Source of the DNA: Raja brachyura | Lineage: Eukaryota | Assembly: GCA_963514005.1 (NCBI GenBank) | Contig: OY740820.1 | Coordinates: 22,568,001-22,632,000 of the forward strand | Length of the DNA stretch: 64,000 nt | Direction of reading: 5' to 3' | In this document: piece by piece, positions 1 through 62,974 of the stretch | How the letters are laid out: every line of letters starts with the position of its first letter | Numbering within the stretch: the first letter of the stretch is position 1 | Position numbers and translations under genes: made by a program | The notes under the pieces: model-generated | What the model was told of the DNA's origin: nothing | Database searches by the model: none | Seen by the model: only the letters and a program-made list of their open reading frames with translations

Positions 1-270
1 GTCCAGGTCCCTTGCAACCTCGTAACATCCTCTTCACAGTTCACACTGCCACCCAGCTTTGTGTCATCCACAAACTTGCTAGTGTTGCTCCTAATTCCCT
101 CTTCCAAATCATTAATATATACGGTAAACAGTTGCGGCCCCAACACCGAGCCTTGCGGCACTCCACTCGCCACTGCCTGCCATTCTGAAAAGGACTTGTT
201 CACTCCTACTCTTTGCTTCCGGTCTGCCAACCAATTTTCTATCCATGTCAACACCCTACCCCCAATACCC
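1..270 (-). mobile_element. CR1-type LINE reverse transcriptase fragment
   Basis: The minus strand encodes GVPQGSVLGPQLFT.YINDLEEGI...SKFVDDTKLGG, the CR1/L2 RT core. Confidence 0.8.
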
Positions 271-2019: not shown

Positions 2020-2892
2020 GGCAGTGAAGAAAGCGAATGGTATGTTAGCATTCATAGCAAAAGGATTTGAGTATAGGAGCAGGGAGGTTCTCCTGCAGTT
2101 GTACAGGGTTTGGGTGAGACCACACCTGGAGTATTGCGTACAGTTTTGGTCTCCAAATCTGAGGAAAGACATTCTTGCCATAGAGGGGGTACAGAGAAGG
2201 TTCACCAGACTGATTCCTGGGATGTCAGGACTTTCATATGAAGAACGACTGGATAGACTCGGCTTGTACTCGCTAGAATTTAGAAGATTGAAGGGGTATC
2301 TTATAGAAACTTACAAAATTCTTAAGGGTACACAAAAGGCTGGAGAAACTCAGCGGGTGCAGCAGCATCTAAGGAGCGAAGGAGATAGGCAACGTTTCAG
2401 GCCGAAACCCTTCTTCAGGGCAGAAGCCCTTCTCGCTCCTTAGATGCTGCTGCACCTGCTGAGTTTCTCCAGCCTTTTGTGTACCCAGGATTTTCCAGCA
2501 TCTGCAGTTCCTTCTTTAACAAAATTCTTAAGGGGTTGGACAGGCTAGATGCAGGAAGATTGTTCCCGATGTTGGGGAAGTCCAGAACAAGGAGTCACAG
2601 AGTAAGGATAAGGGGGAAGTCTTTTAGGACCGAGATGAGAAAATCATTCTTTACACAGAGAGTGGTGAGTCTCTGGAATTCTCTGCCACAGAAGGTAGTT
2701 GAGGCCAGTTCATTGGCTATATTTAAGAGGGAGTTAGATATGGCCCTTGTGGCTAAAGGGATCAGGGGGTATGGAGAGAAGGCAGGTACAGGATACTGAG
2801 TTGGATGATCAGCCACGATCATATTGAATGGCGGTGCAGGCTCGAAGGGCCGAATGGCCTACTCCTGCACCTAATCTCTATGTTTCTATGTT
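2020..2892 (+). mobile_element. 5'-truncated CR1-type LINE (ORF2 C-terminus and 3' UTR) with a nested hairpin element
   Basis: AVKKANGMLAFIAKGFEYRSREVLLQLYRVWVRPHLEYCVQFWSP...FFTQRVVSLWNSLPQKVVEA...GYGEKAGTGY*; tail ctatgtttctatgtt. Confidence 0.92.
2329..2518. mobile_element. Palindromic Penelope-derived mini-element with 16-bp TSD
   Basis: 54-bp inverted arms at 2326-2379 and 2433-2486 (1 mismatch). TSD acaaaattcttaaggg at 2313-2328 and 2519-2534. Arm sequence matches the terminal region of the PLE at about 58975-59030. Confidence 0.85.
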
Positions 2893-3581: not shown

Positions 3582-4220
3582 TGGGGGGGGGGGGGGGAGA
3601 GACGGGGGTAGAGGAGGTAAATTGGGAGGGGGGGAGAGAGGGAGGGATGGGGGGAGAGGGTAAATTGAGGATGGGGAGAGAAAAGGAGGATAGAGGGGGG
3701 AGAGACATGGGGGGGGATGAAGGGGGGGAGGGGAGGCAGGGAGGGATAGGGCGAGTGGGGGGAGGGGTAGAGATGGGGGGGAGAGACATGGGGGGATGAA
3801 GGGGGGAGGGGAGGCAGGGAGGGATAGGGCGAGTGGGGGGAGGAGAGGGGGAGAGACATGGGGGGATGAAGGGGGGAGGGGAGGCAGGGAGGGATAGGGC
3901 GAGTGGGGGGAGGAGAGGGGTAGAGATGGGGGGGAGAGAATAGGAAACTGGTTGGAGGATTTGCTGGGGGGGAGAAGGTTGGAAGACCCGGTGGGGGTCG
4001 GGGGAAGGACAAAGGTGAGGGGAATGGGCTAGAAGAGGGGGGGGGGGTCAAGAAGGCTGTGGGGAGGGGGAGGGGGGGGTTGAACAACCAGGGTGGGAAG
4101 AGGAAGGGGGCTGCAGGACATGGGGATGTGGGCTGGAGGACCAGGAGAGGTGTGGAAATGGGGATGGAGGACCAGGGACGGTGGGGAGTGCAATGGGGGA
4201 AGAGAGGGGGTGCTGGGGGA
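3582..4220. repeat. G/A-rich low-complexity tract with about three ~60-70-bp repeats at the start of NPTN intron 1
   Basis: Runs of G. Unit gagagacatggggggatgaaggggggaggggaggcagggagggatagggcgagtgggggga recurs at about 3700, 3781 and 3851. Confidence 0.85.
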
Positions 4221-5564
4221 GCAAAAAGACAGGAGTTCAACCCAGGTGATGGAATGGGAGCCAGGGTATTATTTGTTGGGGAAGTTGTAGCGAGGGTTGG
4301 CCAAAAAAAACAGGGAGGAGTGGGTGCCGGAAGAGGGATTGGAGTGCTCGGACAGTCACGGGATAGGAGCAAAGTACTGGGGTGGGTTTGGTCTAGGGCA
4401 GTCAGATAATAACTGAGGAAACCCAGAGGGGAGGGTGTCGATGAGAGGTCTGAGAAACATGTGCATTGACGGGGTGATCCTGGAGTTGTGGATTCCAGGT
4501 GTGTGATGAGGGGCAAGGGTGGGGGAGACGAAGACTGGCACAATGTTAGATGGAGTGAGGAATTTGGGGGCTGGTTGGGTTGAGTGCATGGGGCACAGTG
4601 GCAGAATACCTGTATCCATGATAGGTGGCAGAGTGGGGTCTTGGGCCTTGCAGTGGTGGGTTATTGGAGCTAGGAAGATCCAATATCTAGGAAGGAAAGA
4701 TTGCCCTTGTCCTAGTGAATGATAACCTTGGTTTTGCACAAATATCCAAGGATGGGGTGGAGTCTTATTATATAAATGCTTTATTTTAACCAGCTATGAT
4801 GCATCACCTAATACATGTCTTTTTTTTTAATATTTTATAACTGTCAACACAAACAAATGCAAACTCAATGCACTGAAATTCCATCTCTCCCCTTGCCCTG
4901 CAACCTATTTAATGTTTTCAATGTTTTCCCACCTTTCAATTAAATACAGGCCAAATGCCTGCAAAGGGTCAAAATGCAGTAGCATTTTCTAATTGGAACA
5001 ATTGTGATCTTGCATTAAAATTAGACTGAGGGCTGTTTTGCAGTAATGATCCATTTGGAAACGGTGAACAGTACTGCAGTGCAGTGATGTTATTAATTTC
5101 CTTGTCATATTCCACTTTGCAATCTAGGCCAGATCATGCAGGAAAGGTAAAATATTGAAAGGCAATAACTTGAACTAGAAATTAAACATTTCTAGGTTAT
5201 CAGTAGGCGGCTTTTCTGTGGTTTGAGGCAGTAGCAAATGCATTTGAAATCATCTTGTTGAACTATAATAAACTGGTTGCAGAGGATTCATTATTCTATT
5301 TTCATATTTTGTTCATTACTCATTATTAATAATTTTTATTTTGTCAACAGTAATTTGAAATTGATGAAATTCTATATCTGGACTCTAATGTCTGAGCCAT
5401 TGTTTTTCATACACATTTTATTTTTGTCCTGTCAGAATTATCCTCTCAGGAGTCGTGTTGGATAATTCGATGCACTCCAGCGATTATTGTGAGGAAATAT
5501 TGCAAGCATTACAATGTCAGTGTGGTCCCAGAAATATAATCCACAAACTCTGTTGAAAATCCAT

Positions 5565-5990
5565 CTAGAACGTGGAAACAGGCACTTCAGCCCAACCTGC
5601 CCACGCCTGTGTTTACCCATATCCCTCTAATCCTATTCATGTACCTGTCCAAATGTTTTTTTAAAAAGCTGTGATAGAACCTGCCTCGACTACCTCCTCC
5701 GCATATACCTGCCACCATTCATGTGAAAAAAACCTTGCCCCTCAGGTTCCTATTAAATGTTCCCCCCCTCTCCTTAAACCTATGTGCTCTGGTTCATGAT
5801 CCCCTACTCTGAGTAAAATACTCTTTGCATTTACCCTATATATTCTTTTCATTATCTTTTACACCTCTGTAGAATAACCACCCCTCATCTTCCTCCATTC
5901 CAATGAATAAACCCCTAGTCTGCTCAATCTCTCCCTACAGCTCAGGGCCTCTAGTCTTGCAACATCCTTGTAAATCCTCTCTGCACCCTT
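5565..5990 (-). mobile_element. Degenerate CR1-type LINE 3' fragment
   Basis: Similar to the CR1 3' fragment at 63120-63570 (gtacctgtccaaatg...cctgcctc.actacctcctc...caatctctccctacagctcagg). Boundaries approximate. Confidence 0.7.
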
Positions 5991-6087
5991 TAATTAAACT
6001 TGAATTTGGTGCTCAGTGCTTACAAAATAGGCCTGGTTGTGAATGCAGATGTTCTATTTTCGTATTTTGTTCCTGATTCATTAGTAA

Positions 6088-6375
6088 TCATAAATACGGG
6101 GTGAAAGGTGACGCCCAAAGAGCCGTACCTTTTTCTGGTCGCCGCTGGATTTTCAACATTTTGAAAATTGTTGGCCACCTGCTGCGACTATGACAGATGC
6201 CGGCAAGTCACCGAAAAAAACGCGTGAGTGGGACAGGCCCTTAATGATCTTCTGGTAACAAGTCTTTGATATTTGTTCCCTGTGTTATAATGCCAAATGT
6301 GTCCTCCAAGGTAAGTATTTCATTGAAATGATTGGTCGCATCCAAAAAGCCCACACCTTTCACCCGTATTTATGA
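6088..6375. mobile_element. Small inverted-repeat-bounded element (MITE-like) with a nested DNA transposon end
   Basis: tcataaatacggggtgaaaggtg (6088-6110) versus cacctttcacccgtatttatga (6354-6375), perfect except one indel. Internal ...gtgggacaggccc-ttaa resembles a Harbinger-type end. Confidence 0.6.
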
Positions 6376-9300
6376 ACACATTGTATTTATTCATTTAGAA
6401 TGTAGCATTTGGACTTTTAACTTAATTGAGAAAACAAAGACGACAAATGCATTTGCTGCCATTCGGTATTATTTCAAGCTGTAAAAGGAGATTAGAATAA
6501 TCTTTTGCAAATTCCTTCTTGGCATAGTGACTTGTGTTTGTCATAAGTTGTCAGGTCAATGATTGCAGGATGGTTGAGTAACTTTGCAGCCAAGGCTCAT
6601 CTGATCTTATCCGATGTCTATGGGGAATTACTAGGAATGTCCACTGACATTGGCTGCTTTCATGGCGAAGAGAAAGTTGCTTGTAGCACCCAATTTACTG
6701 AGACTTACTAACTCAGCGAAGCACAGTTGAAGGAAAGTGAACCCCTGATCACTCCTCTGTGCGTGTTCAGTCTCCACCCAAAAGGGACATAAACTGGGGC
6801 AGACCCATTGCAGAAATATTGAGATTATAACTTTATAATCAAATCCAACTGCTGCTTGAAGTTTGCATTTTTGAGTTCTGTTTGTGTGCTCACTGTCTTT
6901 ACTCTGTTTACATGGTGCTTCCACCAAAGTTTGAATTTCATCTGCGAAGAACTGGGATAATTGGTATAGAAGCTACAAGTGACTTGCATGTCAGGCTAAT
7001 TTGCCTTTCTCTCATGCCTACTTTGGAAAGTCAACAGGAAAGCTACAGCAGTTGCTTGTGGAGGATAAGGAGTCATTCATCTCAAATAGATGGAAGGGGG
7101 GTGAGGGGAGAAAAAAAGCTGGTTCCCCCCCCCATCACGTTTTCTTTTGCCAAGTGTGGCTTTAATTTGAACTAAGATGACAGATTTACTCAGGTGAACC
7201 AGGAGAAATTCTTCAGTGGCTTTCTCCTTTCCATTGTCCATTATTATTTAGAACACGGTCTTATTATTTTTGAAATTGATTTTGTGTGGTTACTGGATAA
7301 TGACCAGTTTTTTGTGTTGTGTGAATCTTCCATAATAGAACGCAGACCAATACAGCACGGGATCAGGCCCTACGGCCTACAAGATGCCAAGTTAAACTAA
7401 TCTCTTCCTGCACCCGATCCATAATCTTACCATTGACTTGGTAGCTAGTGTGTGGAAGATTGTCATTTAAATTTTATAATGTTAATGGCATTTAACTAAA
7501 CTATTTGCTAGTAAAACCCAATGTTCTCAATTCGTGGAGGAAACTGAATGTTAGTTGTCCCGTTCTGATAGTCTTTAACTTGATACATATATAGTCAGTT
7601 TCTTTCTCAATGCAGCTTCACATGCTGAGTGTTTCCTCAACTTTATGTATTTTAAAGTTGAATGTTTTCTGTAACAAGTCCATTTTAGTGTAGATCCTTT
7701 TCCTTTCAAGCTAAAATTGCTGCTGGTTTAAAGCACTATTTGTGCAGTCTAAATTATGGTGCATTTTAGCTCCCAAAATTTTCTGAAAAGGACCCTCTAA
7801 TTTAGCAGCAACCTATGATTAATTATAATTGTTGCCTGTGCTGTTGGGAGTGCAGACTTGCTTCACAACCAACAACCCTGTCTGCGATGTAGAAAAGTAC
7901 AATGTCTTGTGAGATTTTGTAAATTTTGTTTTGATTCCAGCCCATTTAATCTCAGTAATGAAAGCCAGAAATGTTTTCTGCAAAGCTACAAAATTAAATG
8001 TGTGTGCATGTATTTGCATGCACATACTGAAGCGTGCAATATGGGACTTATTTGATGTAGTGAAAATTCATCTTTATTTCAATGTGCTGGTTAGAGTCAG
8101 ATTTATTTGTATATGTAGTCTGATACAGTGTTTCGGTGTTCAAATCATATTCAAAATGCTACAAATTGAGCACCATGTAAACACAGTAAGTGACACATTC
8201 ACTGGACGGTCTGTGATTACATAGTAAAATGTTACATCAATGCAATAATACATTCACATTACTTTTCAGAGGTGATTAGAATGAATCAATTAAGAATGTT
8301 ATTTGTCAGAATTAATGTGCTCACCATGAATATTTTGCTTTAAATGTTAATATCTCATAAATATGTGGTTTAACATTTGACTAATGCAAGTTGCTTTTTG
8401 TGGTGACTATTCTTTGAGAATTACCAACCAGGTACAGTATTAACAGTGTCAAACTTGATTCATTTTAAAATTATTGCAGTATTTTAATTTATTCCCCAAT
8501 AGCTGTAGCATTTGTGTACTGTAATTGTGTCTAGTTATTTTTCTTTGTTTATAGCTGCCTTAATAAATGTTTTACTTTTGCAAAATGCAGCTGTTTTGTT
8601 TAACAAGAGCACGGTCATGTTGATAGGTAGTATATGTAGGAGTCCTCTTGAATACTGCAGCATTCATCAATTTTGGCCAGATAGTAAAATTAACTAACTA
8701 AATGTTTCCATTCGTGTGTATACACATATGAATGTTCTTCGGTATGTTTGTATGTGTGGGTACTCCATTGAGATTTTAAAAAGTACCGAGGATCTTAAAC
8801 AGCATTAAATTGTTAGGCATTATAGCACTTAGAAGTTCTTGTATTTTGCACTTTTGTTCAAGAGCAGGTTTTCCCTGAAGTCAACTTGTATAAGGGCCGC
8901 TGCAGAATAATTGTGCAGCATGTATTGGCATTGTTAGAATATCTGCTGTCGACCTGTTTCTGTGCCATTCCTTTTTGAACTGCATTAATCTGCAGCATTA
9001 AGGTGATGGTCTGGTTGGATCTAATGTGGACTGTGCAAATGTGTAAGTTGAATTCTTGAGCATAGGAGTGATAGGTTAGTGGTCTTGCTTTTTCAGCTTC
9101 CTATTATACATTCTATGTGCTGTCAGCATAGAGAACAAGCTTAATGTTAACATGTTTTTCTTTTACCCTCCTTAGTTATAACAAAAAATACTGAGTATTA
9201 TAGTGAAGTGGGGTATCTCATAGCCTAGTCTGGCGAAATTAAAATGCAAGTTCCCCATAGAATGAAGGCAGCAGAGCATCTGTGAATCCAGTTCCTCAAG

Positions 9301-9471: not shown

Positions 9472-9870
9472 TATTTCATATTTCGCTTGGGCAGCTTACA
9501 CCCCAGCGGTATGAATATTGACTTCTCTAACTTCAAGTAACCCTGTCCATCCCTCCCCCTACCCAGTTCTCCAGCCAGTGTCACTATTGTCAATTACATT
9601 TTATCTCCGTTTGCTTTGTTGTCAACCTCTTCTAGCTAACAATGATCGATTCTACAATTTCCTTGATTCGCATCTCTTTTGATGTCTAATTTTCACACCT
9701 TACACATCCTTATCTCTGAGTCTCCCTCTCCCATGACTCTCAGTCAGAAGAAGGGTCTCGACCTGAAACATCACCCATTCCTTCTATCCAGAGAAGCTGC
9801 CTGTCTCGCTGAGTTACTCCAGCATTTTGTGTCTATCTTCAGTGTAAACCAGCATCAGTTCCTTCCTACA
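9472..9870 (+). mobile_element. Penelope-like element 3' fragment
   Basis: Encodes FIFRLGSLHPSGMNIDFSNFK*, the same C-terminus as the PLE at 58790-58850, then 3' UTR and terminal repeat. Confidence 0.8.
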
Positions 9871-13692: not shown

Positions 13693-16600
13693 ATTTAGTT
13701 TTCCCTTTTGTTTGGCTCGATTCCCTTTAGGGTAGTTTTGTTGTTATATACATCTTTACTATAATTGCGATGATGTTTAGGAAATAAATCATCAGTCACT
13801 TTACTATTTTCCCCTATGTTTCCGTATGATATGGAAGGATGCTACTTTCTGTGTATGCCACTTTTAGTTTTGAAAACTATACTGCGGTATAGTTTTCAAC
13901 ATTTCCATTTGCATTCAAGGCATCATTTACATTGTGGTTAAAAACCCTTTGCTATTAGAAATGATATACCAAGCATCCATGGTGATGTGCATTCGGCTTC
14001 CAGGCTTATTGGATGACCTTTCTGGTTCATCTAGTACATGTAGCTATTTCAAATATATATAATTTAATTTGAACTTGCTATGAACATTTACTGATCTTGA
14101 ATTAAATATAATACTACTGATATTGTAAAAATCAGAACTCCATAGGTTCATGGAGCATGGAAAAGAGGCGGTGGCGATGAGTGGGCAATTAACCTATCCA
14201 CCTGCATTTTGGGAAATGGGAGAAACCCAGAGCACCTAGAAGATGCCCACACCATCGCAGGGTGGTCATGCAAACTCCACCCATACAGTATAGAGGTCGG
14301 GGTTTAACCTGAATTGGCTGAGCTCTGAAGCAACAGCTCTTCTTGCTTTTATTTTAAACCCATTTGTTACTTAATCTTTCCTACCCAACTCATTCTGTCA
14401 CACTTTTATTTCTATTTTCTCAGTTCCTCCTTCTGTCTCCCTCTGTTTTCTCCAATCTTTCATGGTTCTGATGAAATATTGTGCTGAAGCCTTTGCTCCA
14501 TTTCTATCTGCTCACATGCTAACAGATCCGATGAGTACTTCAAGTAGCTTCAATTACATACAAACCCTCCAGTGTCTTTAGTGTTTTACTTAAGAAACGT
14601 CAGAAATGTTATTTGTTCACATCAGTGTTTCATAGACGTGGGAGTTGGAGGCAACATGAATATTTATGAGATTTGTTCAGATTTTTATTAAAATTGGGAT
14701 TTTCACCATTGTAGATGTAAATAAAATATAGGGATTTGCTCATTTGGATCCATATTTTGAACAAAATGGTAATTTGTGAAGGGCTTTAGGATTCCCCGGC
14801 AGTTTGTTAGGACACAAGTTAAGTTCTTGAAACTAATTCTGTAGTTTGGATGATGAATTCCACATTATTTAATGTTAGTATGTTAAAGCTGGTGTTCGTC
14901 ACTTTAGATCTACCTCATGTCTCAGGCATTTATCTCTGGCCGGCTGTACAAGCCAGTATTAGAAGTGTACTTAAGGTGCTTACAATTACCATAAAAGGAC
15001 AATGCTTCTTATGTGCCAACTATAAACAGGGTTCACACTTGTTGAATATAAACAGCTTTTAGCTCTCTGAGAAGCCTTGCAGTATTGGAAGCACAAAGCC
15101 AATCTTACATAGAGCAAGTTTATTCAATGCCGTAGCACTTTAGCACAAAAGTAGTGTTCTTGCTTGATATAGATATAGCCAGAGGGGAACTAATTTATAG
15201 TAATTAGAGGTTAAATAGTGCTTCACTTTTGGAGAATCGTCATTATTCAAGAAATGATTTCCCAACCATTTCTCAATGGACAGTACTTGCCTCACTCGTT
15301 GTTGTGAGCTCAGCAGTCACTTGAGACATGCAAGACGTTTAGTGCTACACATTGTGTGGTGGGGATTGGGGAGGAAACTAGGCCAATCTTTACTCTTTTA
15401 AAAATTAATTAAAGTAAGATTTGTCCAGTATCACGTTGTAGTTTGTGATAGCTTACTGGGGCAAAGTTGGATGCCGTAGTTTTGTTATAGCAATGGTTAC
15501 AGTTCATTAACCACTGCTTTTTGGAAGAAAATTAGGAGAAACATCTTGCTAAAAGAGAGGAGAAAATGACGTTTGTAAGATCATTAATTCATGTCGTACC
15601 AAATTTGAAGGTCTCTTTCACTTGAGTTCATTGGAAACCTAATTTTAAAATGTCTGCATGGAGAAACCAAAATACTTGACTCTGTAAGAAGGAACTACAG
15701 ATAACTGTTCAGTACACACTGGATGGAAATATAGTTGTATTGATCTTTGTGCCTTTGAGGTGGTATAATTTTTTCCGTCAAGTCAGATTGTTTAAACGGC
15801 CTTTGAATAAGGAATCTAGGACAATAGTGGCAAAGAGCAGCAATGCAGATTTATCAGTAACTGCAACTTTCAACAGAATTTGCCGTACTGGATTGTATTG
15901 TGGTGGATAGATTCAAGTTTTTTATCCATTTTGAATGCAGTGCATGTTCACCTACATCCTTAACAGAAAATAAATCTACTTATATGATTACTGATGGGAA
16001 AATCAGACTACTTGTATCTATTAACTAGTGCTTTTGTTTAGTTTAAATATTATCAAATTATTGCCAAATCCTTATTAAAGAAGTTTGTAGAAAAGTAACA
16101 TTCCCAGACACTCTGCTCATTTCTCACAGAAGTGGTTTCATTGAGCTGCAAAGCACAATTTTATTTTAATTCAAAGAAGCTACAATAAATTTTATGCAGC
16201 TCGTGTCAGCATTATGTAGAGTCAAGTTAGGTAAGATTGACGCAGATAATCTTTGACACTGCACCAAATATCTATTTGAACTCCAGCCTACGAGAAGCGG
16301 CCATGACATCGTCTGGACAGACTGCCCTTGCAACTTACTTTTTATCTCTCCCCCCCCCCCCCGCCCTCCCCAAACAATCTCCATGTTTCTCTGCTTGATG
16401 GATTAATGAAGAATGCCTAATCTTCTGAATGCCTAGTTTTTCTTGCTACCTTTGTAGCTGTGAGTTAATGGCAAAATAAATAATTGCAGAGACAACCGAG
16501 TCTCCAGAAGGTTTTCTGAGCTCCAGTCGGGTGGGTAACTTGGCTGGGTTTTATTTCTTTGTTGCTCATTTTCTCTATGGAATTAGATCTTTTTTTTTGC

Positions 16601-17164
16601 TGATTCCTGTTACTGCAGAACCTCTGCAGTTAACTCAGAAGGAATCGGGAATTGAATTTGACAGATCAGATTCATGTGACTTGTTTCTGGTTTGGATATT
16701 TTTGAACCTTGGGTGTGGCATGAAACCAAGTTAAGAATATAACATCAGACAGGGAGTGTAGCGAGCCATTCAATCCCTGGTAACTACTTGCTTGTTCAAA
16801 ATGGTCAAAGCTCACCTTTCATCTCACTGCCTTGTGCTTGCACTGATCCCGTATCCCTTAATTCCCATAACATTTAAAAATCTATTTCCTTCTGTATTGA
16901 ACATGTGCTCTAAGCCTAAAAAAAATTCCAATGATTCAATGCCCTGATAAAGGATTCAAAGCTGATCCCTTAATTTAAGGCTTGACACCCTAACCAGCCG
17001 AAGCATCAATTCTGAATCTGCCATGTCAAATCCCATTTTATTGAGATTATCTCTCATATTTCTAAGTAAACCGTATCCAACCCGAAGCGTCTCCTACTCC
17101 TTTTCTCCAGAGATGCTGTCTGACCTGCTGACTTACTCCAGCTTTTGGTGTCTATCTTCAGTTT

Positions 17165-20440: not shown

Positions 20441-20839
<399 letters not shown>

Positions 20840-29119: not shown

Positions 29120-29319
29120 GTTACACAAAAAGCTGGGGAAACTGAGCGGGTGCAGCAGCATCTAAGGAGCGAAGGAGATAGGCGACGTTTCGGGTCGAGA
29201 CCCTTCTTCAAACGTCGCCTATCTCCTTCGCTCCTTAGATGCTGCTGCACCCGCTGAGTTTCTCCAGCTTTTTGTGCAACTCTCGATTCTCCAGCATCTG
29301 CAGTTCCTTCTTTAACAAC
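29120..29319. mobile_element. Palindromic Penelope-derived mini-element with 16-bp TSD
   Basis: About 70-bp inverted arms around cgggtcgagacccttcttc. TSD aatgtagcaaatgatg at 29104-29119 and 29320-29335. Confidence 0.85.
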
Positions 29320-29942: not shown

Positions 29943-30140
29943 AAGGTAGACGCAAAATGCTGAAGAAACCCAGGAGGACAGGCAGCATCTCTGGATAGAA
30001 GGAATGGGTGACTGAAGAAGGGTCTCGACCTGAAACGTCACCCATTCCTTCTATCCAGAGATGCTGCCTGTCCTGCTGAGTTGCTCCAGCATTTTGTGCA
30101 TTTTGGTGTAAACCAGCATCTGTAGTTCCTTCCTCCACAG
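29943..30140. mobile_element. Palindromic Penelope-derived mini-element with 13-bp TSD
   Basis: Inverted arms enclose ctgaagaagggtctcgacctgaaac. TSD tctgtctccattt at 29930-29942 and 30141-30153. Confidence 0.85.
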
Positions 30141-53774: not shown

Positions 53775-55748
53775 GGGGAGTCGTGGACAGGGGAAGCGAG
53801 GGGAGTCGTGGACAGGGGAAGCGAGGGGAGTCGTGGACAGGGGAAGCGAGGGGAGTCGTGGACAGGGAAGTGAGGGGAGTCGTGGACAGGGGAAGCGAGG
53901 GGAGTCGTGGACAGGGGAAGCGAGGGGAGTCGTGGACAGGGAAGTGAGGGGAGTCGTGGACAGGGGGAGTCGTGGACAGGGGAAGTGAGGGGAGTCGTGG
54001 ACAGGGGAAGCGAGGGGAGTCGTGGACAGGGGAAGTGAGGGGAGCCGTGGAAGGGGAAGTGAAGGGAGTCGTAGAGAGGGGAAGTGAGGGGAGTCGTGGA
54101 AGGGAAGTGAGGGGAGTCGTGGACAGGGGAAGCGAGGGGAGTCGTGGAAGGGGAAGTGAAGGGAGTCGTAGAGAGGGGAAGTGAGGGGAGTCGTGGACAG
54201 GGGAAGTGAGGGGAGTCGTGGACAGGCGAAGCGAGGGGAGTCGTGGACAGGGAAGTGAGGGGAGTCGTGGACAGGGGAAGTGAGGGGAGTCGTGGACAGG
54301 GGAAGTGAGGGGAGTCGTGGGAGGGGAGTCATGGACAGGGGAAGTGAGGGGAGTCGTGGAGGGGAAGTGAGGGGAGTCGTGGACAGGGGAAGTGAGGGGA
54401 GCCGTGGACAGGGAAGTGAGGGGAGTCGTGGGAGGGGAGTCATGGACAGGGGAAGTGAGGGGAGTCGTGGAGGGGAAGTGAGGGGAGTCGTGGACAGGGG
54501 AAGTGAGGGGAGCCGTGGAAGGGGAAGTGAGGGGAGTCGTGGACAGGGGAAGTGAGGGGAGCCGTGGAAGGGGAAGTGAGGAGAGCCGTGGAAGGGGAAG
54601 TGAGGGGAGTCGTGGACAGGGGAAGTGAGGGGAGTCGTGGACAGGGGAAGTGAGGGGAGTCGTGGAGAGGGGAAGTGAGGGGAGCCGTGGAAGGGGAAGT
54701 GAGGGGAGTCGTGGACAGGGGAAGTGAGGGGAGCCGTGGACAGGGGAAGTGAAGGGAGTCGTAGAGAGGGGAAGTGAGGGGAGTCGTGGACAGGGGAAGT
54801 GAAGGGAGTCGTAGAGAGGGGAAGTGAGGGGAGTCGTGGACAGGGGAAGTGAAGGGAGTCGTAGAGAGGGGAAGTGAGGGGAGCCGTGGAAGGGGAAGTG
54901 AGGGGAGTCGTGGACAGGGGAAGTGAGGGGAGTCGTGGACAGGGGAAGTGAGGGGAGTCGTGGAGAAGGGAAGTGAGGGGAGTCGTGGACAGGGGAAGCG
55001 AGGGGAGTCGTGGACAGGGGAAGTGAGGGGAGTCGTGGAGAGGGGAAGTGAGGGGAGTCGTGGACAGGGGAAGTGAGGGGAGTCGTGGACAGGGGAAGTG
55101 AGGGGAGTCGTGGAGATGGGAAGTGAGGGGAGTCGTGGACAGGGGAAGTGAGGGGAGCCGTGGAAGGGGAAGTGAGGGGAGCCGTGGAAGGGGAAGTGAG
55201 GGGAGCCGTGGAAGGGAAGTGAGGGGAGTCGTGGACAGGGGAAGCGAGGGGAGTCGTGGACAGGGAAGTGAGGGGAGTCGTGGGAGGGGAGTCATGGACA
55301 GGGGAAGTGAGGGGAGTCGTGGAGGGGAAGTGAGGGGAGTCGTGGAAGGGGAGGGGAGTCATGGACAGGGGAAGTGAGGGGAGTCATGGACAGGGGAAGT
55401 GAGGGGAGTCGTGGACAGGGGAAGTGAGGGGAGTCGTGGAAGGGAAGTGAGGGGAGTCGTGGAAGGGAAGTGAGGGGAGTCGTGGAAGGGAAGTGAGGGG
55501 AGTCGTGGAAGGGAAGTGAGGGGAGTCGTGGAGAGGGGAAGTGAGGGGAGTCGTGGAGAGGGGAAGTGAGGGGAGTCGTGGAGTGGGGAAGTGAGGGGAG
55601 TCGTGGACAGGGGAAGTGAGGGGAGTCGTGGACAGGGGAAGTGAGGGGAGTCGTGGAGTGGGGAAGTGAGGGGAGTCGTGGACAGGGGAAGTGAGGGGAG
55701 TCGTGGACAGGGGAAGTGAGGGGAGTCGTGGACAGGGGAAGTGAGGGG
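53775..55748. repeat. G-rich minisatellite, 24-25-bp unit, roughly 80 copies
   Basis: Unit ggggagtcgtggacaggggaagtga with variants (gcga/gtga, gaca/gaa/gaga, gtcgt/gccgt/gtcat). Starts about 50 nt after the PPCDC donor. Confidence 0.97.
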
Positions 55749-56228
55749 GGGAATGGTGAGAGGTGGAGGGGAAGAGTGAGGGGAGTAGCAGAGTGGAAGA
55801 GTGAAGGAGTAGTGGAGTGAGGGAGTTGGGAGAGGTGGAGGGGCATTAAGGGTGGAATAGAGGACGGGGAGTCAGGGAGGGCGATAGTGAGGGGGGAGTC
55901 GTGGAGGGGGGTGTTGGGAGAGTTGTAGGGGAAGTGAGGAGAGGGGGATAGTGAGGGGAGTGGGCAATAACTCAGCGGTCAGTCAGCATCTCTGGAGAAC
56001 ATGGATAGGTGATGTTTCGGCTCGAGACCCTTCTTCAGACTGCCTGAAGCCTCAACCCTATTTGAATAAAGGTCCCAATTGGAAATGTTATATCCATGTT
56101 CACCAGAGATGCTGCCTTACCTGCTTGAGTTACTCCAGCACTTTGTGTCTGTTTGTATATTATACAGCATCTGCAGTTTCTTGTTTCTACACTCATACTT
56201 CCTACGTTCATATCAAATCATAAATGTA

Positions 56229-57420: not shown

Positions 57421-57644
57421 ACATACAAGCAATTAAGGAGAAGACATAAAGTCCTTCATTGTTCTTTATCTCTCCACATCACCGTCTATATCTCTCTTTT
57501 CCCTGATCCCTGACCAGTCTGAAGAAGGGTCTCGACCCGAAACGTCGCCTATCTCCTTCACTCCTTAGATGCTGCTGCACCCGCTGAGTTTCTCCAGCTT
57601 TTTGTGTAATCCTGGAGTAACTGGGTGGGTCAAGTAACATCCAT

Positions 57645-59031
57645 CAACGATTGCATTGGTGCTACCTCCTGCACCCACACACAACTCACTGAGCTAGATA
57701 GGGCTCTTAAAAATAGCGGAGTCAGGGGATATGGGGAGCAGGCAGGAACGGGGTACTGATTGGGGATGATCAGCCATGATCACATTGAATGGTGGTGCTG
57801 GCTCGAAGGGCCGAATGGCCTATTCCTGCACCTATTGTCTATTGACTTCATCAACTTCACCACTAACTTCCATTCGGCACTCAAATACACCTGGACCATT
57901 TCCGTCACTTCCCTACCATTTCATGACCTCACTATCTCCATCGCAGGTGATAGACTTCTGACCGACATCCACCATAAGCCCACTGACTCCCATGGCTATC
58001 TAGACTACACTTCTTCCCACCCTACTTCCTGTAAGGACTCCATCCCCTACTCCCAATTCCTCCGTCTACGCCGCATCTGCTCCCAGGATGAGGTGTTCCA
58101 CACCAGGGCATCTGAAATGTCCTCATTCTACAGGGAACGGGGGTTCCCTTCCCCTACCATAGATGAGGCTCTCACCAGGGTCTCTTCAATATCCCGCAAC
58201 ACTGCTCTCTCTCCCCATCCCCCCCAATCGGAACAAGGGAAGAGCCCCCTAGTCCTCACCTTCCACCGCACTAGCTGTCACGTACAACAAATAGTCCTCC
58301 GTCATTTTCGCCACCTCCAACGTGACCCCACCACTCGCCACATCTTCTCATCTTCCCCCCCCCCCCCCCGTCTACTTTCTGCAAAGACCGCTCCCTCCGT
58401 AACTCCCTGGTCAATTCTTCCCTTCCCACCCCCTCCCCGGGCACTTTCCCTTGCAGGAGATGCTACACTTGTCGCTTTATGTCTCCCCTCAACTCCATTC
58501 AAGGACCCAAGCAGTCGTTCCAGGTGCGGCAGAGGTTCACCAGCACCTCCTCCAACCTCATCTATTGCATCCACTGCTCTAGATGTCAGCTGATCTACAT
58601 CGGTGAGACCAAGCGTAGGCTTGGCGATCGTTTCGCTGAACACCTCCGCTCGGTCCGCGTTAACCAACCTGATCTCTCTGTGGCTCAGCACTTCAACTCC
58701 CCCTCCCATTCCAAACCCAACCTTTCTGTCCTGGGCCTCTTCCATGGCCAGAGTGAGGACCACCGGAAATTGGAGGAACAGCCCCTCATATTCCGCTTGG
58801 GCAGTCTGCACCCTAGCGGCCTGAACATTGACTTCTCCAATTTCCGGTAGCCCTTGCTGTCTCCTCCCCTTACTAGCTCTCCCTCAGCCCTCGGACTCCT
58901 CCTCTTCCTTTCTTCTTCCCCACCCACCCTGCATCAGTCTGAAGAAGGGTTTCGACCCGAAACGTTGCCTATTTCCTTCGCTCCATAGATGCTGCCTCAC
59001 CCGCTGAGTTTCTCCAGCACCTTTGTCTACC
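57645..59031 (+). mobile_element. 5'-truncated, frameshifted Penelope-like element (RT C-terminal part, GIY-YIG endonuclease, terminal repeat)
   Basis: Begins at a degenerate YIDD motif (INDCIGATSCTHTQLT). Continues DFINFTTNFH...LPFHDLTI...KPTDSHGYLDYTSSHP...SIPYSQFLRLRRICS, then GIY-YIG NLIYCIHCSRCQLIYIGETKRRLGDRFAEH...HF...LIFRLGSLHPSGLNIDF. Flanked by aacatccat at 57636-57644 and 59032-59040. Interrupted by a CR1 3' end. Confidence 0.9.
57693..57843 (+). mobile_element. CR1-type LINE 3' end inserted into the Penelope-like element
   Basis: ELDRALKNSGVRGYGEQAGTGY* followed by the same 3' UTR and ctattgtctatt tail as the other CR1 copies. Confidence 0.85.
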
Positions 59032-60110
59032 AACATCCATTTAAGTTCATTTTAAGTACAGATGCTGCCTACACCAGCACTTTGCGTCTTTTTTTGGTAA
59101 ACCAGCATCTGCAGTTCCTTGTTTCTGCAAGCAAATACATTTCACTTCATTCCATCTTGCTTGATTAGAGAGCATCATCAACATTGACATCCAAATCCTT
59201 AGTCATCTAAGCCTTCCTCCCCAAAGCAAACCACCTCTCTGACATAGACCTATACAGCACGGAAACAGGCCCATGCCATCCAAGATGCCCCATGTTCTAC
59301 ACTATCCATGTATCTGCCCAAATGTTTCCATGGTACTCACCTCAACCACCTCCTCCGGCAGCTCATTCCATAGACCCGCACCGTCTGTGTAACAAGGCTG
59401 CCCCTCAGGTTCCTACTGTTCCCAGCAAGTGGTTGCCATTCAATTCTTGCCGTTTTTTACACGTGTGACTTACTTTGGTTTTACTTTTCCCAACCAAGAC
59501 GAGCAGCCCGTTGAACAGTACATCCCTTCCAATTCCAATGTGAGTGGTTCGCAGCATAGAGACAAGAAACTGCAGATACTGGTGAAAAATGTTACTTTTA
59601 TAACAACTAAACCGGTTCGCTTCTTAATAAACAGACAACTTACAAATGTTTGGTAGACCAGTTCAAAACTTTACTTATTATGGGCCGATGGAAGGGAGGG
59701 AGAACTCTAGTCAAGTGAGCAATACAGACACTTCACTGTCCTTAGTCCACTTCCTCGAACAACGGAATTACATCGTATTATATAGTGTTTTTTTGTCACC
59801 TTAGCACATTCCACAAACATTAGTTATGGTCAGAGGTACAGGAAATAAAGATCACTGCAGGATGCGCCTGAGTGGTCTCGTCACATCAAAGGCATCTTGT
59901 CATATGGTACAAGGGTTACATATCGAAGGCTTCAGCCATTTGTCAAAATGTCAATCAAAATTTGTCAATCTAGTTTCCACTCTCGTCACCTCCTCCCTCA
60001 TAAACATCGGACATTTGGTGCAAGGCATTTTACATGTCAAATACATCAGCCATTGCATACCTCAAAGGCATCGGACATTTGTCCCAATACCCCTTACTGG
60101 GATTAATCTG

Positions 60111-61141: not shown

Positions 61142-61470
61142 TATCTCTCTCGTCAAATGCTGGACGCATTTTAAAGTAATTCATTATCTCAATACACAGC
61201 AACCTGAGGCAAGCCTAATTTGAGACTAAATATAAACTGTAAGACAGCCCAGGAACCAATTAAATATCTTCTTATATTTTTTACTTAATTCAGCCTTATC
61301 ACTGGAATCCTGAGCAAAGCACAGAGTGCTGGAGGAACCCGGCGGATCAGGCAGCATCTGCGGGAGGAAGGGGCAGACGATGTTTCCCTCCTCCACCCTA
61401 GACGTCCTACCAGTTCCACTGTTTGAGTCCTTGTATTCCTCTCATTAGCACATTCTTCCTAGCCACGCCA

Positions 61471-61784
61471 GGGTGGCACGGTGGCACAGCAGTAGCATTG
61501 CTGCCTTACAGCGATTACAGCGCCACAGACCCGGGTTCGATCCTGACTACGGGTGCCTGTCCGTGCGTAGTTTGTACGTTCTCCCCTGTGACCTGCGTGG
61601 ATTTTCTCCAAGAACTTGCGTTTCCTTCCACACTTGAAAGACGGACACGTTTGTCGGTTAATTAGCTTGGTGTAAAGGCAAATAATTGTCCCTGGTGTAG
61701 GATAGTGTGAATGTGCGGGGATTGTTGGTCGGTGCGGACACAGTGGGCCGAAGGGGCTCTTTCCGCGCAGTATCTCTAAACTAA
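61471..61784 (+). mobile_element. Near-complete tRNA-derived SINE (HE1/V-SINE-like)
   Basis: Box A-like tggcacagcagtag, box B ggttcgatcc, core tttgtacgttctcccc.gtgacctgcgtgg, tail tatctctaaactaaa. Confidence 0.85.
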
Positions 61785-62974
61785 ATAATGGGCCATTATG
61801 GACTCCATCCTTCCTGAGGTCATCTGTTGCCGGCTCTGAGTTGTTCTGGCCTTTTCTTGTCTAAAGTCCCAGTCTGAAGAAGGGTCCCGACCTGAAACGT
61901 TACCTACACTTTTCTCCAAAGATGCTGCCTGATCTGCTGAGTTACTCCAGCATTTTGTGTCCGTGTCCAGTCCAAACCAGCATGTGCAATTCCTTCCTCC
62001 ACACCAGGCAAGGTAGGTTGAGCATCTTTCCCTGGACGCTACCCTTATTTTTATGATTTTATTTCCCTGTGTAAATGGAGTTTTCCAGTACATCATCCAT
62101 GGAGACTCTTGACCCCTGAAGGGATGTCAAACAGGGGTCTAGAGTCTAGACAGGGTCTAGGTGACCCCAAACAGAGTGTCTACTCTCCACATCAACCTCA
62201 GGGGAGATTGCTATCGTTGGTCAGACATAGAGAGCAGTGAAAAGTGAGAGTTGTGTTCACTGCTGGTCAGCCATGTGTTCAGGATACTCGATACGATTAC
62301 AATCAAGCCATTTACAGTGTATAGATACACGATAAGGGAGTTAAAGTAAGAAATGTTGCTGCAGGAGTGGAGATTTAAGAGTGTGGAGCCATTGTAATAT
62401 GTGGCTAGCAGGCAATTGGTCGCTTGGGTTAGACTTGATGGGCCAAATGGCCTAATTCTGCTCCTATCACTTATGGACCATTCACCTTGACAAGGAGGAT
62501 AAAGGTGGACTTTATTTAACCTTGGCGCTTCATAGCATCATTGCAGCATGATGGTGCAAGTGTGGCCATTGGTGAAAGTGGTGGTGCATAAATTGGTTTG
62601 GCAGTAAATCTCAGGAATGGCAGTGTGCCAACAAGAGTGGCTTTACAGTTATGGCGGCAATGTGCTCGAACAGTGATAAGCTATTTAATGAGGTGGGGTT
62701 TTTAACAACCTTGTGGTGTTGCGACATCACTCAACGTTTTATAGCACCTGCCAATTGTTCAGAAAATGGCTGTGGGAAAAAGATGAACGTGTGGGGAGAA
62801 GGTCACTGTGATCTCGCTCTCGTTGTTGCGTCCACTGTGCCCCTACACATCACAAAGTACCCTGTGGTTTGTTTGATGGACTGGAAAATTAACCTGAAAC
62901 AATCCGTTCTCTCTGCCTGAGTGAAAAGACCGTTGAATGCAGAACCAAAATGATTCTTTTCATAAAGATCTTGA

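What the first reader, a model, noticed from the sequence alone, without database searches (positions are those of the whole stretch)
58939..58966. Minimal hammerhead-ribozyme-like motif in the PLE terminus, dispersed in about 15 copies across the window
Seen: CTGAAGA-A-GGGT-(TTCG/CTCG)-ACCC-GAAAC-GT(C/T) about 90 nt after the PLE stop codon. The same core occurs at 52868-52895 and 57519-57546 (intact), at 30012-30039, 61874-61901 and 2391-2418(-), and in decayed form near 9745, 11805, 29185, 32410, 32875, 38770, 39050, 51405, 52007 and 56010. Established: the hammerhead core is CUGANGA-stem II-GAAA-stem III-UH, and PLE terminal repeats carry minimal type I hammerheads with a very short palindromic stem III thought to act as dimers; here ACGT is that palindrome. 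Caveats: there is an extra A before stem II, and stem I is only about 2 bp in most copies (gggt/acct in the decayed copy at 51402-51437). Inference: a retrozyme-like system placing candidate self-cleaving motifs in the sense strand of NPTN and PPCDC introns.
Basis: partly seen in the sequence, partly recalled or inferred. Interest (0 to 1): 0.7.

Follow-up and report, generated by a model that had tools for sequence, protein, structure and literature searches.

The report
Penelope retrotransposon's minimal hammerhead ribozyme
The repeat is the stripped-down self-cutting-RNA motif already known from Penelope-type jumping genes, and the ends of its many genomic copies suggest that it likely sits at the very start of the element's RNA, is mostly copied uncut, and possibly does cut a small share of those RNAs in the animal.

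Summary
The motif is real: 14 window matches against 0 by chance, and 53,803 exact 27-mers in the genome. It is the minimal type I hammerhead (min-HHR) in the pseudo-LTR of a Neptune-type Penelope-like element (PLE). An intact 3,991-nt unit with RT and GIY-YIG carries it at both ends. The extra A and the ACGU palindrome are published min-HHR features, not caveats. It is not a retrozyme. Most copies are 95-135-nt insertions that decay neutrally and occur in both orientations in introns; only 3 of 18 window copies examined are intact. Copy ends point to the mechanism: 53 of 100 young copies begin 0-7 nt before the core, often after an extra G, and only 2 begin at the cut site. They are likely run-off cDNAs from uncut RNA that starts there. 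Among 30 tandem-jump loci, 10 re-enter exactly at the predicted cut site, which hints at rare cleavage in vivo; a reverse-transcriptase stall is not excluded. I found no covariation, and cleavage was not tested. The scan found this family and the transcript-start reading before, on other DNA of this genome.

The parts
57843..58850 (+). 5'-truncated, frameshifted 3' end of a Neptune-type PLE ORF (end of RT, Cys linker, GIY-YIG); stop TAG at 58848-58850
   Evidence: 82.6% identical to the intact unit L275 over 57843-58929; GIY-YIG E 0.001, below the Pfam cut-off; the homologous full ORF has RVT_1 and GIY-YIG, both below cut-off
58851..58935 (+). 3' UTR part of the pseudo-LTR, pyrimidine-rich; resembles an intron from GT at 58847 to CAG at 58937, splicing not shown
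   Evidence: sequence; a GT over the stop codon in most ORF ends listed; no GT..AG joint among the 15 of 54 contig joints shown
58936..58938 (+). AGT: 5' strand of the 2-bp stem I and inferred transcription start (initiator-like YCAGT, motif recalled)
   Evidence: family-wide pile-up of copy 5' ends at -4..0 with an extra G; inference
58939..58966 (+). Minimal type I hammerhead: CUGAAGA, extra A, stem II 58947-58958 (GGGU/ACCC, UUCG loop), GAAA, palindromic ACGU, H17 = U; predicted cut between 58966 and 58967
   Evidence: fits the PMC4209133 consensus
58967..59031 (+). Downstream pLTR (5' UTR sequence of the next unit), ending at the first of two fixed 3' ends, the inferred internal RT start
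   Evidence: homology ends at 59030-59032 in 15 of the 25 rows shown; family 3' ends at +86..96 in 64 and +125..131 in 22 of 100 copies
57456..57609 (+). Young subfamily-A terminus with an intact min-HHR at 57519-57546
   Evidence: 98% identical to the reference copy from -63 to +90; intact
61871..61963 (+). Older terminus with a formally intact min-HHR at 61874-61901 (G.U at the base of stem II)
52868..52961 (+). Solo copy that starts at C3; core intact, stem I 5' strand missing; lies after the NPTN stop
29946..30102 (.). Inverted pair: a forward copy from the core plus an inverted arm; would fold as one long hairpin that buries the GUC
29120..29281 (.). Inverted pair, young subfamily A
2327..2485 (.). 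Inverted pair with the core at 2391-2418 (-)
53642..53731 (+). Host context: PPCDC-like coding exon. A later Flavoprotein exon lies 4.2 kb beyond the window end, so 57519, 58939 and 61874 are sense-intronic
   Evidence: E 0.016 to 1qzu; PF02441 E 5.7e-15 at L041:4200-4334
20474..20824 (+). Host context: neuroplastin (NPTN) Ig1 exon
   Evidence: E 1.9e-71 to neuroplastin 9gsd_B

Best explanation
The motif is the minimal type I hammerhead in the pseudo-LTR of a very high-copy Neptune-type Penelope-like retrotransposon; it likely forms the first ~31 nt of the element's transcript, most dispersed copies are likely run-off cDNAs of uncut RNA, and the ribozyme possibly cuts only a small share of RNAs, probably as a protein-assisted dimer. 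Shown: an intact unit has the motif at both ends, 3,991 nt apart, with the ORF starting 163 nt after the 5' copy; insertions end at two fixed points (+90, +129); half of young copies start 0-7 nt before the core; inserted copies decay neutrally. Inferred: an internal Pol II promoter starts the RNA at about the A of CAGT. The PLE protein nicks the target and starts RT inside the RNA at +90 or +129, as shown in vitro for the anole element PAc. On the 5' pLTR the RT reaches the RNA end after 95-135 nt and inserts a solo copy; when both target ends are extended, the two cDNAs join head-to-head. The two hammerheads of a unit-length or read-through RNA would pair through ACGU and cut after GUC/GUU, which would remove the cap and promoter-bearing leader or trim multimers. 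This cut is not needed for most insertions. The dispersed copies are by-products with no sign of a host role. Odds by step: family identity 0.95, transcript-start/run-off 0.7, rare cleavage in vivo 0.45.
For: Architecture. Consensus fit. Constraint among 6 subfamily majorities: core 0 of 11 columns variable, stems 1 of 14 (U-A to U.G), tail 22 of 61, Fisher p 0.002. 5' ends of the first 100 tail-anchored copies on C1: 53 at -7..0, 31 further upstream, 16 at +2..+28, 2 of these at +28. Genome-wide 25-26-mers: tail 53,494; across the cut site 57,757 (CpG-degenerate); across the 5' edge 12,696. Three long copies (L087, L092, L104) also start at that edge. G directly before 5' ends at -7..-2 in 15 of 24 against 7.0 expected, p 7e-4; controls 3-6 of 25. 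An extra G marks capped full-length L1 insertions (PMC11702581, passage). Shared flanking repeats of 10 bp or more in 17 of 197 copies against 0 of 197 swapped; about 3 of the 17 are matches within element sequence. 1,449 exact head-to-head junctions at the near-self-complementary AGACT end. Rare cutting: all 40 genome-wide tandem junction matches make 30 loci; re-entry is at +28 in 10, at +29..34 in 14, at +22..27 in 1 (ambiguous) and at +16..21 in 5, p 2e-6 against uniform. Two arrays have differing seams that all stop at +28..31.
Against: No cleavage assay and no raw RNA reads: only contigs were available, and they cannot show ends. No compensatory changes above shuffles in 255 copies. The hammerhead fold is far from the predicted minimum: monomer -4.2 against -8.5 to -9.6 kcal/mol, forced dimer about -6.6 against -19 (no tertiary terms). 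Stem I is 2 bp, with a wobble beside the cut in subfamilies A and B. Copies starting at +28 are not in excess overall: 152 against 140 at +32, and 68 at +30 with a different filter. The +28 seams reduce to about 7 distinct types, and +31 has about 6. Two of the ten +28 loci (L361, L365) have only a 10-13-nt filler upstream. Arrays can be inherited: one 66-nt array type recurs at 6 places. An extra G also occurs at three +28 loci, so G may mark any template end and not a cap. In the all-family set the G excess is weak (8 of 18). In D. virilis Penelope the start site lies 46 nt before a 75-nt intron that ends at helix I (PMC2377424 passages; PMC4209133), so not at the hammerhead. The subfamily test is biased by profile-based selection, and the 100 copies are neighbours on one contig, with a few duplicates.
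Confidence: 0.65

Rival explanations
1. The motif is a catalytically dead hammerhead relic, kept because the same bases serve as an internal core promoter (initiator plus downstream element) or as a protein-binding site; the +28 seams are RT stalls at a hairpin (rel 14-17 paired with 25-28).
For: No covariation; the hammerhead fold is disfavoured; no overall excess of +28 starts. AAACGTCR at +25..+32 from the inferred start resembles the RGACGTGY downstream element of Penelope and LINEs (PMC2377424). One array passes +28 in its last-made unit (L321). PAc inserts without cleavage and shows no RNA-seq ends at its cut site (PMC11167929). 8 of 9 Xenopus dimers did not cleave (bioRxiv 2026.07.22.740005).
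Against: Subfamily changes fall in the loop, H17 and a pair-keeping position. The seam edge is exactly at nucleotide 1.1, mostly without microhomology, whereas a stall before a paired G28 would be expected at +29 (inference). Related motifs cleave in vitro as dimers or with protein.
Confidence: 0.25
2. The shared 5' edge is not a transcription start but a 3' splice site (CAG|T) or an RT road-block at the hammerhead in longer RNA; the solo copies are ordinary 5'-truncated products of the 3' pLTR.
For: A pyrimidine tract, CTGAC and CAG precede the core, and GT overlaps the stop codon. The D. virilis intron ends at helix I.
Against: 30 of the 53 edge copies extend to -4..-2, past the splice junction at -1. 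Copies with clear duplications abut target DNA with no shared upstream exon. The extra G suggests a physical RNA end. No GT..AG joint among the 15 of 54 contig joints shown.
Confidence: 0.15
3. One reading: a retrozyme-like non-autonomous system whose dispersed copies self-cleave in host pre-mRNA such as NPTN and PPCDC.
For: Three formally intact sense copies lie within 4.4 kb in a PPCDC intron. 58 of 84 young copies keep core, stem II and palindrome. Animal retrozymes derive from pLTRs.
Against: Retrozymes are tandem units that each hold a hammerhead; the tandem arrays seen here lack the core after the first unit. Core plus stem II mutate like the tail, 16 of 1,428 against 32 of 2,746. Both orientations occur in NPTN introns, 3 sense and 5 antisense.
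Confidence: 0.05

Closest known systems
min-HHRs of metazoan PLE pseudo-LTRs (Cervera and de la Pena 2014, PMC4209133; main-text parts 1-2 of 4, supplement part 2 and passages of part 1 read)
   Same: CUGANGA-H, G10.1-C11.1, GAAA-N-palindrome-UH, no loop 3, position in both pLTRs, mass dispersal as single motifs and opposite-strand pairs. The Acropora row also has a 4-bp helix II.
   Different: Helix I is 2 bp with a wobble in two subfamilies, weaker than the rows I saw. Copy number is about 0.95 million by extrapolation, against 4,000-9,000 reported for coelacanth and Xenopus. No cartilaginous fish name was found in the 2 supplement files searched (one file could not be searched).
Neptune-clade EN+ PLEs (Craig et al. 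2021, PMC8557442; passages)
   Same: Single ORF with RT, a CX2-5CxxC linker and C-terminal GIY-YIG; partial tandems, inverted 5' copies, a 30-40-bp tail.
   Different: Clade assigned by motifs only, no tree built. The passages seen do not describe solo copies starting at the hammerhead edge.
PAc Poseidon element of Anolis (Frangieh et al. 2024, PMC11167929; parts 1-2 of 4 read)
   Same: Two internal RT starts in an AC-rich region that define the tail; both target strands extended; uncut RNA as the main substrate; protein-assisted HHR.
   Different: In PAc the ORF starts inside the HHR; here it starts 163 nt downstream. They found no RNA ends at the cut site.
Animal non-LTR retrozymes (bioRxiv 10.64898/2026.07.22.740005; parts 1 and 3 and passages read)
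   Same: pLTR-derived, non-coding, carry a type I HHR.
   Different: Defined as tandem repeats with an HHR in each unit; the copies here are solo or inverted, and the arrays lack the core.

Membership tests
Minimal type I hammerhead (min-HHR) | Core C3-U4-G5-A6-N7-G8-A9, G12-A13-A14, A15.1-U16.1, H17 | tested here: met
   invariant in 6 subfamily majorities
Minimal type I hammerhead (min-HHR) | Extra nucleotide between 9 and 10.1; G10.1-C11.1; palindromic 15.2-16.2 | tested here: met
   A; G-C; C-G
Minimal type I hammerhead (min-HHR) | Helix II of 3 bp or more | tested here: met
   4 bp plus tetraloop
Minimal type I hammerhead (min-HHR) | Helix I (2-6 bp in published rows) | tested here: inconclusive
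   2 bp, one of them U.G in the focal subfamily; predicted pairing probability about 0
Minimal type I hammerhead (min-HHR) | Compensatory covariation in stems | tested here: inconclusive
   double changes 0-7 per pair against shuffled means of 0.9-6.4 in 255 copies; subfamilies too close to give power; no distant family retrieved
Minimal type I hammerhead (min-HHR) | Self-cleavage after H17 as a dimer or with protein | not testable with these tools
   indirect only: seam edge at +28; no overall excess
Rfam hammerhead families | Reaches a model's score | tested here: not met
   no hammerhead hit at E up to 10 in the window; none at gathering score in 19 loci
EN+ PLE, Neptune type | One ORF with RT and C-terminal GIY-YIG | tested here: met
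   1,192-aa ORF in L275; RVT_1 E 5e-4, GIY-YIG E 2e-3, both under the cut-offs
EN+ PLE, Neptune type | CX2-5CxxC linker between RT and EN | tested here: met
   CNRKRCYTC; definition
EN+ PLE, Neptune type | Partial-tandem pLTRs, inverted 5' copies, 30-40-bp tail | tested here: met
   L270, L274, L275; 24 of 100 copies inverted; 3' ends at about +93 and +128
EN+ PLE, Neptune type | RT phylogeny within the Neptune clade | not tested
   no reference sequences fetched
Non-LTR retrozyme | Tandem units, each with a complete HHR | tested here: not met
   window copies are solo or inverted; arrays lack the core; not surveyed genome-wide
Non-LTR retrozyme | Abundant circular RNA | not testable with these tools
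   only contigs available

The most novel reading that the evidence does not exclude
In this PLE the hammerhead is written over the core promoter and forms the first 31 nt of the capped RNA. About half of some million copies are run-off cDNAs that map the start site, and tandem-jump seams at exactly nucleotide 1.1 are a germ-line fossil record that an animal min-HHR cuts in vivo, acting as a built-in brake that removes cap and promoter from a share of transcripts.
Probability: 0.3. Interest if true: 0.7.

Novelty: new member of a known kind. Interest (0 to 1): 0.42.

Why it matters
The motif itself is a known kind. [quoted passage not shown] This genome holds a young, huge family with an intact unit, a sharp predicted start site and a predicted cut site 31 nt apart, so both questions become direct assays. 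If the seams record cleavage, they would be indirect in vivo evidence; I found none in print, but Lunse et al. 2017 is not held and was not read. For the host genes NPTN and PPCDC nothing special is indicated.

Tried and rejected
Rfam: only miRNA-like hairpin hits caused by inverted pairs; nothing in 19 loci, so no U6 or other RNA at the +28 starts sampled. Longer stem I at 51406: rejected, it is an inverted fragment. Cleavage as the usual 5' end: rejected. Overall excess of +28 starts: none. Covariation: none. Distant hammerhead families for covariation: the metagenome scan gave one unrelated, bacterial-looking locus; a loose genome pattern gave 455 hits against 185 in its control, and the 100 listed are mostly mutated copies. 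My generic descriptor wrongly dropped perfect copies (loop rule), so its counts are not used. RNA contigs X1-X4 (RNA status guessed, two probably DNA, source organisms unnamed) cover the terminus but cannot show ends or strand; no splice joint among the rows shown. An MTE-like promoter match was noticed from recall and not tested. Lunse et al. 2017 was not read; what I know of it comes from the review PMC6765202 (passages). Supplements of the bioRxiv retrozyme preprint, which includes one chondrichthyan, are closed and could bear on novelty.

Full report
Observation. Positions are given relative to C3 of the core (rel 0 = window 58939); the predicted cut lies between +27 and +28. The motif is at 58939-58966, 88 nt after the stop codon of a frameshifted ORF fragment. 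The window has 14 matches with up to 3 mismatches against 0 in 100 shuffles and 30 profile hits, 17 of which reach the core. The exact 27-mer occurs 53,803 times in the 2.7-Gb genome, the reversed control 0 times. In 800 kb of arbitrarily chosen blocks there are 281 hits, about 0.95 million genome-wide by extrapolation. Of 18 window copies examined, only 57519, 58939 and 61874 are fully intact. The host is probably a cartilaginous fish (recalled repeat types and earlier notes; not tested).

The element. The upstream fragment (57843-58850) is 82.6% identical to an intact unit, L275. That unit has a partial 5' copy of the ORF end, a hammerhead at 1334, a 1,192-aa ORF starting at +163, and a second hammerhead at 5325, 3,991 nt later. 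The protein has RT and GIY-YIG matches, both below the Pfam cut-offs, and a CX4CX2C linker, which Craig et al. give for Neptune PLEs (PMC8557442, passages). Partial tandems, inverted 5' copies (24 of 100) and two fixed 3' ends about 35 nt apart (64 of 100 at +86..96, 22 at +125..131) are the PLE signature. The two ends match the two internal RT starts shown in vitro for PAc (PMC11167929).

The hammerhead. The motif fits the min-HHR consensus of Cervera and de la Pena, in which the extra base after A9, G10.1-C11.1 and the palindromic 15.2-16.2 pair are conserved features and 2-bp helices I occur (PMC4209133). Among six subfamily majorities, 0 of 11 core columns and 1 of 14 stem columns vary (U-A to U.G), against 22 of 61 in the tail (p 0.002; selection by profile biases this test). 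There is no compensatory covariation, no Rfam hit, and the hammerhead fold is predicted to be much less stable than alternatives, as monomer and as dimer. This fits the low or protein-dependent activity reported for relatives. After insertion the motif decays neutrally: 16 of 1,428 core and stem II sites against 32 of 2,746 tail sites, CpG sites excluded.

Where copies begin. Of the first 100 tail-anchored young copies on contig C1, 53 begin at -7..0 (two of these in fact continue upstream and were dropped), 31 run further into the pLTR, and 16 begin at +2..+28, 2 of them at +28. Genome-wide counts agree: 53,494 for the tail word, 57,757 for a CpG-degenerate word across the cut site, 12,696 for a word across the 5' edge. 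Flanking repeats of 10 bp or more bracket 17 of 197 copies against 0 in a swapped control; about 3 of the 17 are spurious. A G directly precedes 15 of 24 non-inverted starts at -7..-2 (7.0 expected, p 7e-4), the mark of capped full-length L1 insertions (PMC11702581, passage), though it may mark any template end. 1,449 head-to-head junctions sit at the near-self-complementary end AGACT, as expected if two cDNAs that both ran to about -3 were joined. I infer a transcription start at the A of CAGT, internal RT initiation and run-off. A splice acceptor at CAG|T is the main alternative, but 30 of the 53 edge copies reach past it. D. virilis Penelope starts well upstream of its hammerhead (PMC2377424, passages), so this layout differs from the one characterised case.

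Does it cut? Copies that start at +28 after two purines number 152, against 140 at +32: no overall excess. A direct search for tandem seams from the RT start back into +8..+34 gave 40 matches at 30 loci, all listed. Re-entry is at +28 in 10 loci, +29..34 in 14, +22..27 in 1 (ambiguous) and +16..21 in 5 (p 2e-6 against uniform). In two arrays the seams differ from unit to unit yet all stop at +28..31. That edge is what a cut template would leave. Against: about 7 distinct seam types at +28 and about 6 at +31, several of the latter with microhomology; two of the ten have only a short filler upstream; arrays can be inherited (a 66-nt type recurs at 6 places); and a weak hairpin that ends at G28 could stall RT. 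I put cleavage in vivo at about 0.45. RNA data could not decide: only contigs were available.

Host genes. NPTN is confirmed and its stop lies near 48079. A PPCDC-like exon at 53642 and a Flavoprotein exon 4.2 kb past the window (107 of 174 candidate peptides scanned) place 57519, 58939 and 61874 in a sense intron. NPTN introns hold 3 sense and 5 antisense copies, and the only sense copy with an intact core lies in an inverted-repeat hairpin. Nothing suggests selection on these copies. The retrozyme label fails its defining feature, tandem units each with a hammerhead, as far as sampled.

Verdict. A new member of a known kind: a PLE min-HHR. The added value is the genomic record of a likely start site at the ribozyme and a possible trace of rare cleavage. 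The scan reached the start-site reading before on other DNA of this genome; those notes are not independent support. Searches for prior work were made, seen as listings; Lunse et al. 2017 was not available. Interest 0.42.

Noticed in passing
G000:C41 upstream of the window (stitched coordinates 7158, 16542-17065, 35107, 73535) and downstream (197430, 257634); A recurring 66-nt tandem array from another subfamily: first unit from the core, later units from about +20 via TG microhomology, up to 9 units. It looks like a self-propagating minisatellite-like derivative that lacks the CUGANGA strand.
   Followed up: partly
L304 (G000:C1:74835266-74835640), L312, L321, L359: Arrays of 3-6 units of 60-63 nt that start exactly at the predicted cut site; L304 also has an inverted arm joined at a GGCC seam.
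   Followed up: yes
L295:1501-1538 and three similar rows (C1:141240988, C2:113436353, C3:31078213): A second small repeat family with CTGATGA...GAAACGTY and a different 24-nt interior; no PLE ORF within 1.5 kb of L295; may be chance or a different hammerhead.
   Followed up: partly
L275:1361-1465 (rel +28..+130): The 5' UTR between the cut site and the two RT starts folds into nested stems (AGAUGCUG with CAGCAUCU; a GCUG/CAGC hairpin); a candidate binding element for the PLE protein. It also holds a 41-codon upstream ORF that overlaps the main ATG.
   Followed up: no
L275:1966-2664, and the same place in 7 other long copies: A 231-232-codon open frame overlapping the N-terminal part of the PLE ORF; may be a by-product of C-rich sequence.
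   Followed up: no
window 53740-55750: A long G-rich tandem repeat that begins right after the first PPCDC-like coding exon.
   Followed up: no
window 61468-61790 and 57700-57842: A tRNA-derived SINE-like insertion and a CR1-like 3' end next to the focal element (labels recalled, not tested).
   Followed up: no
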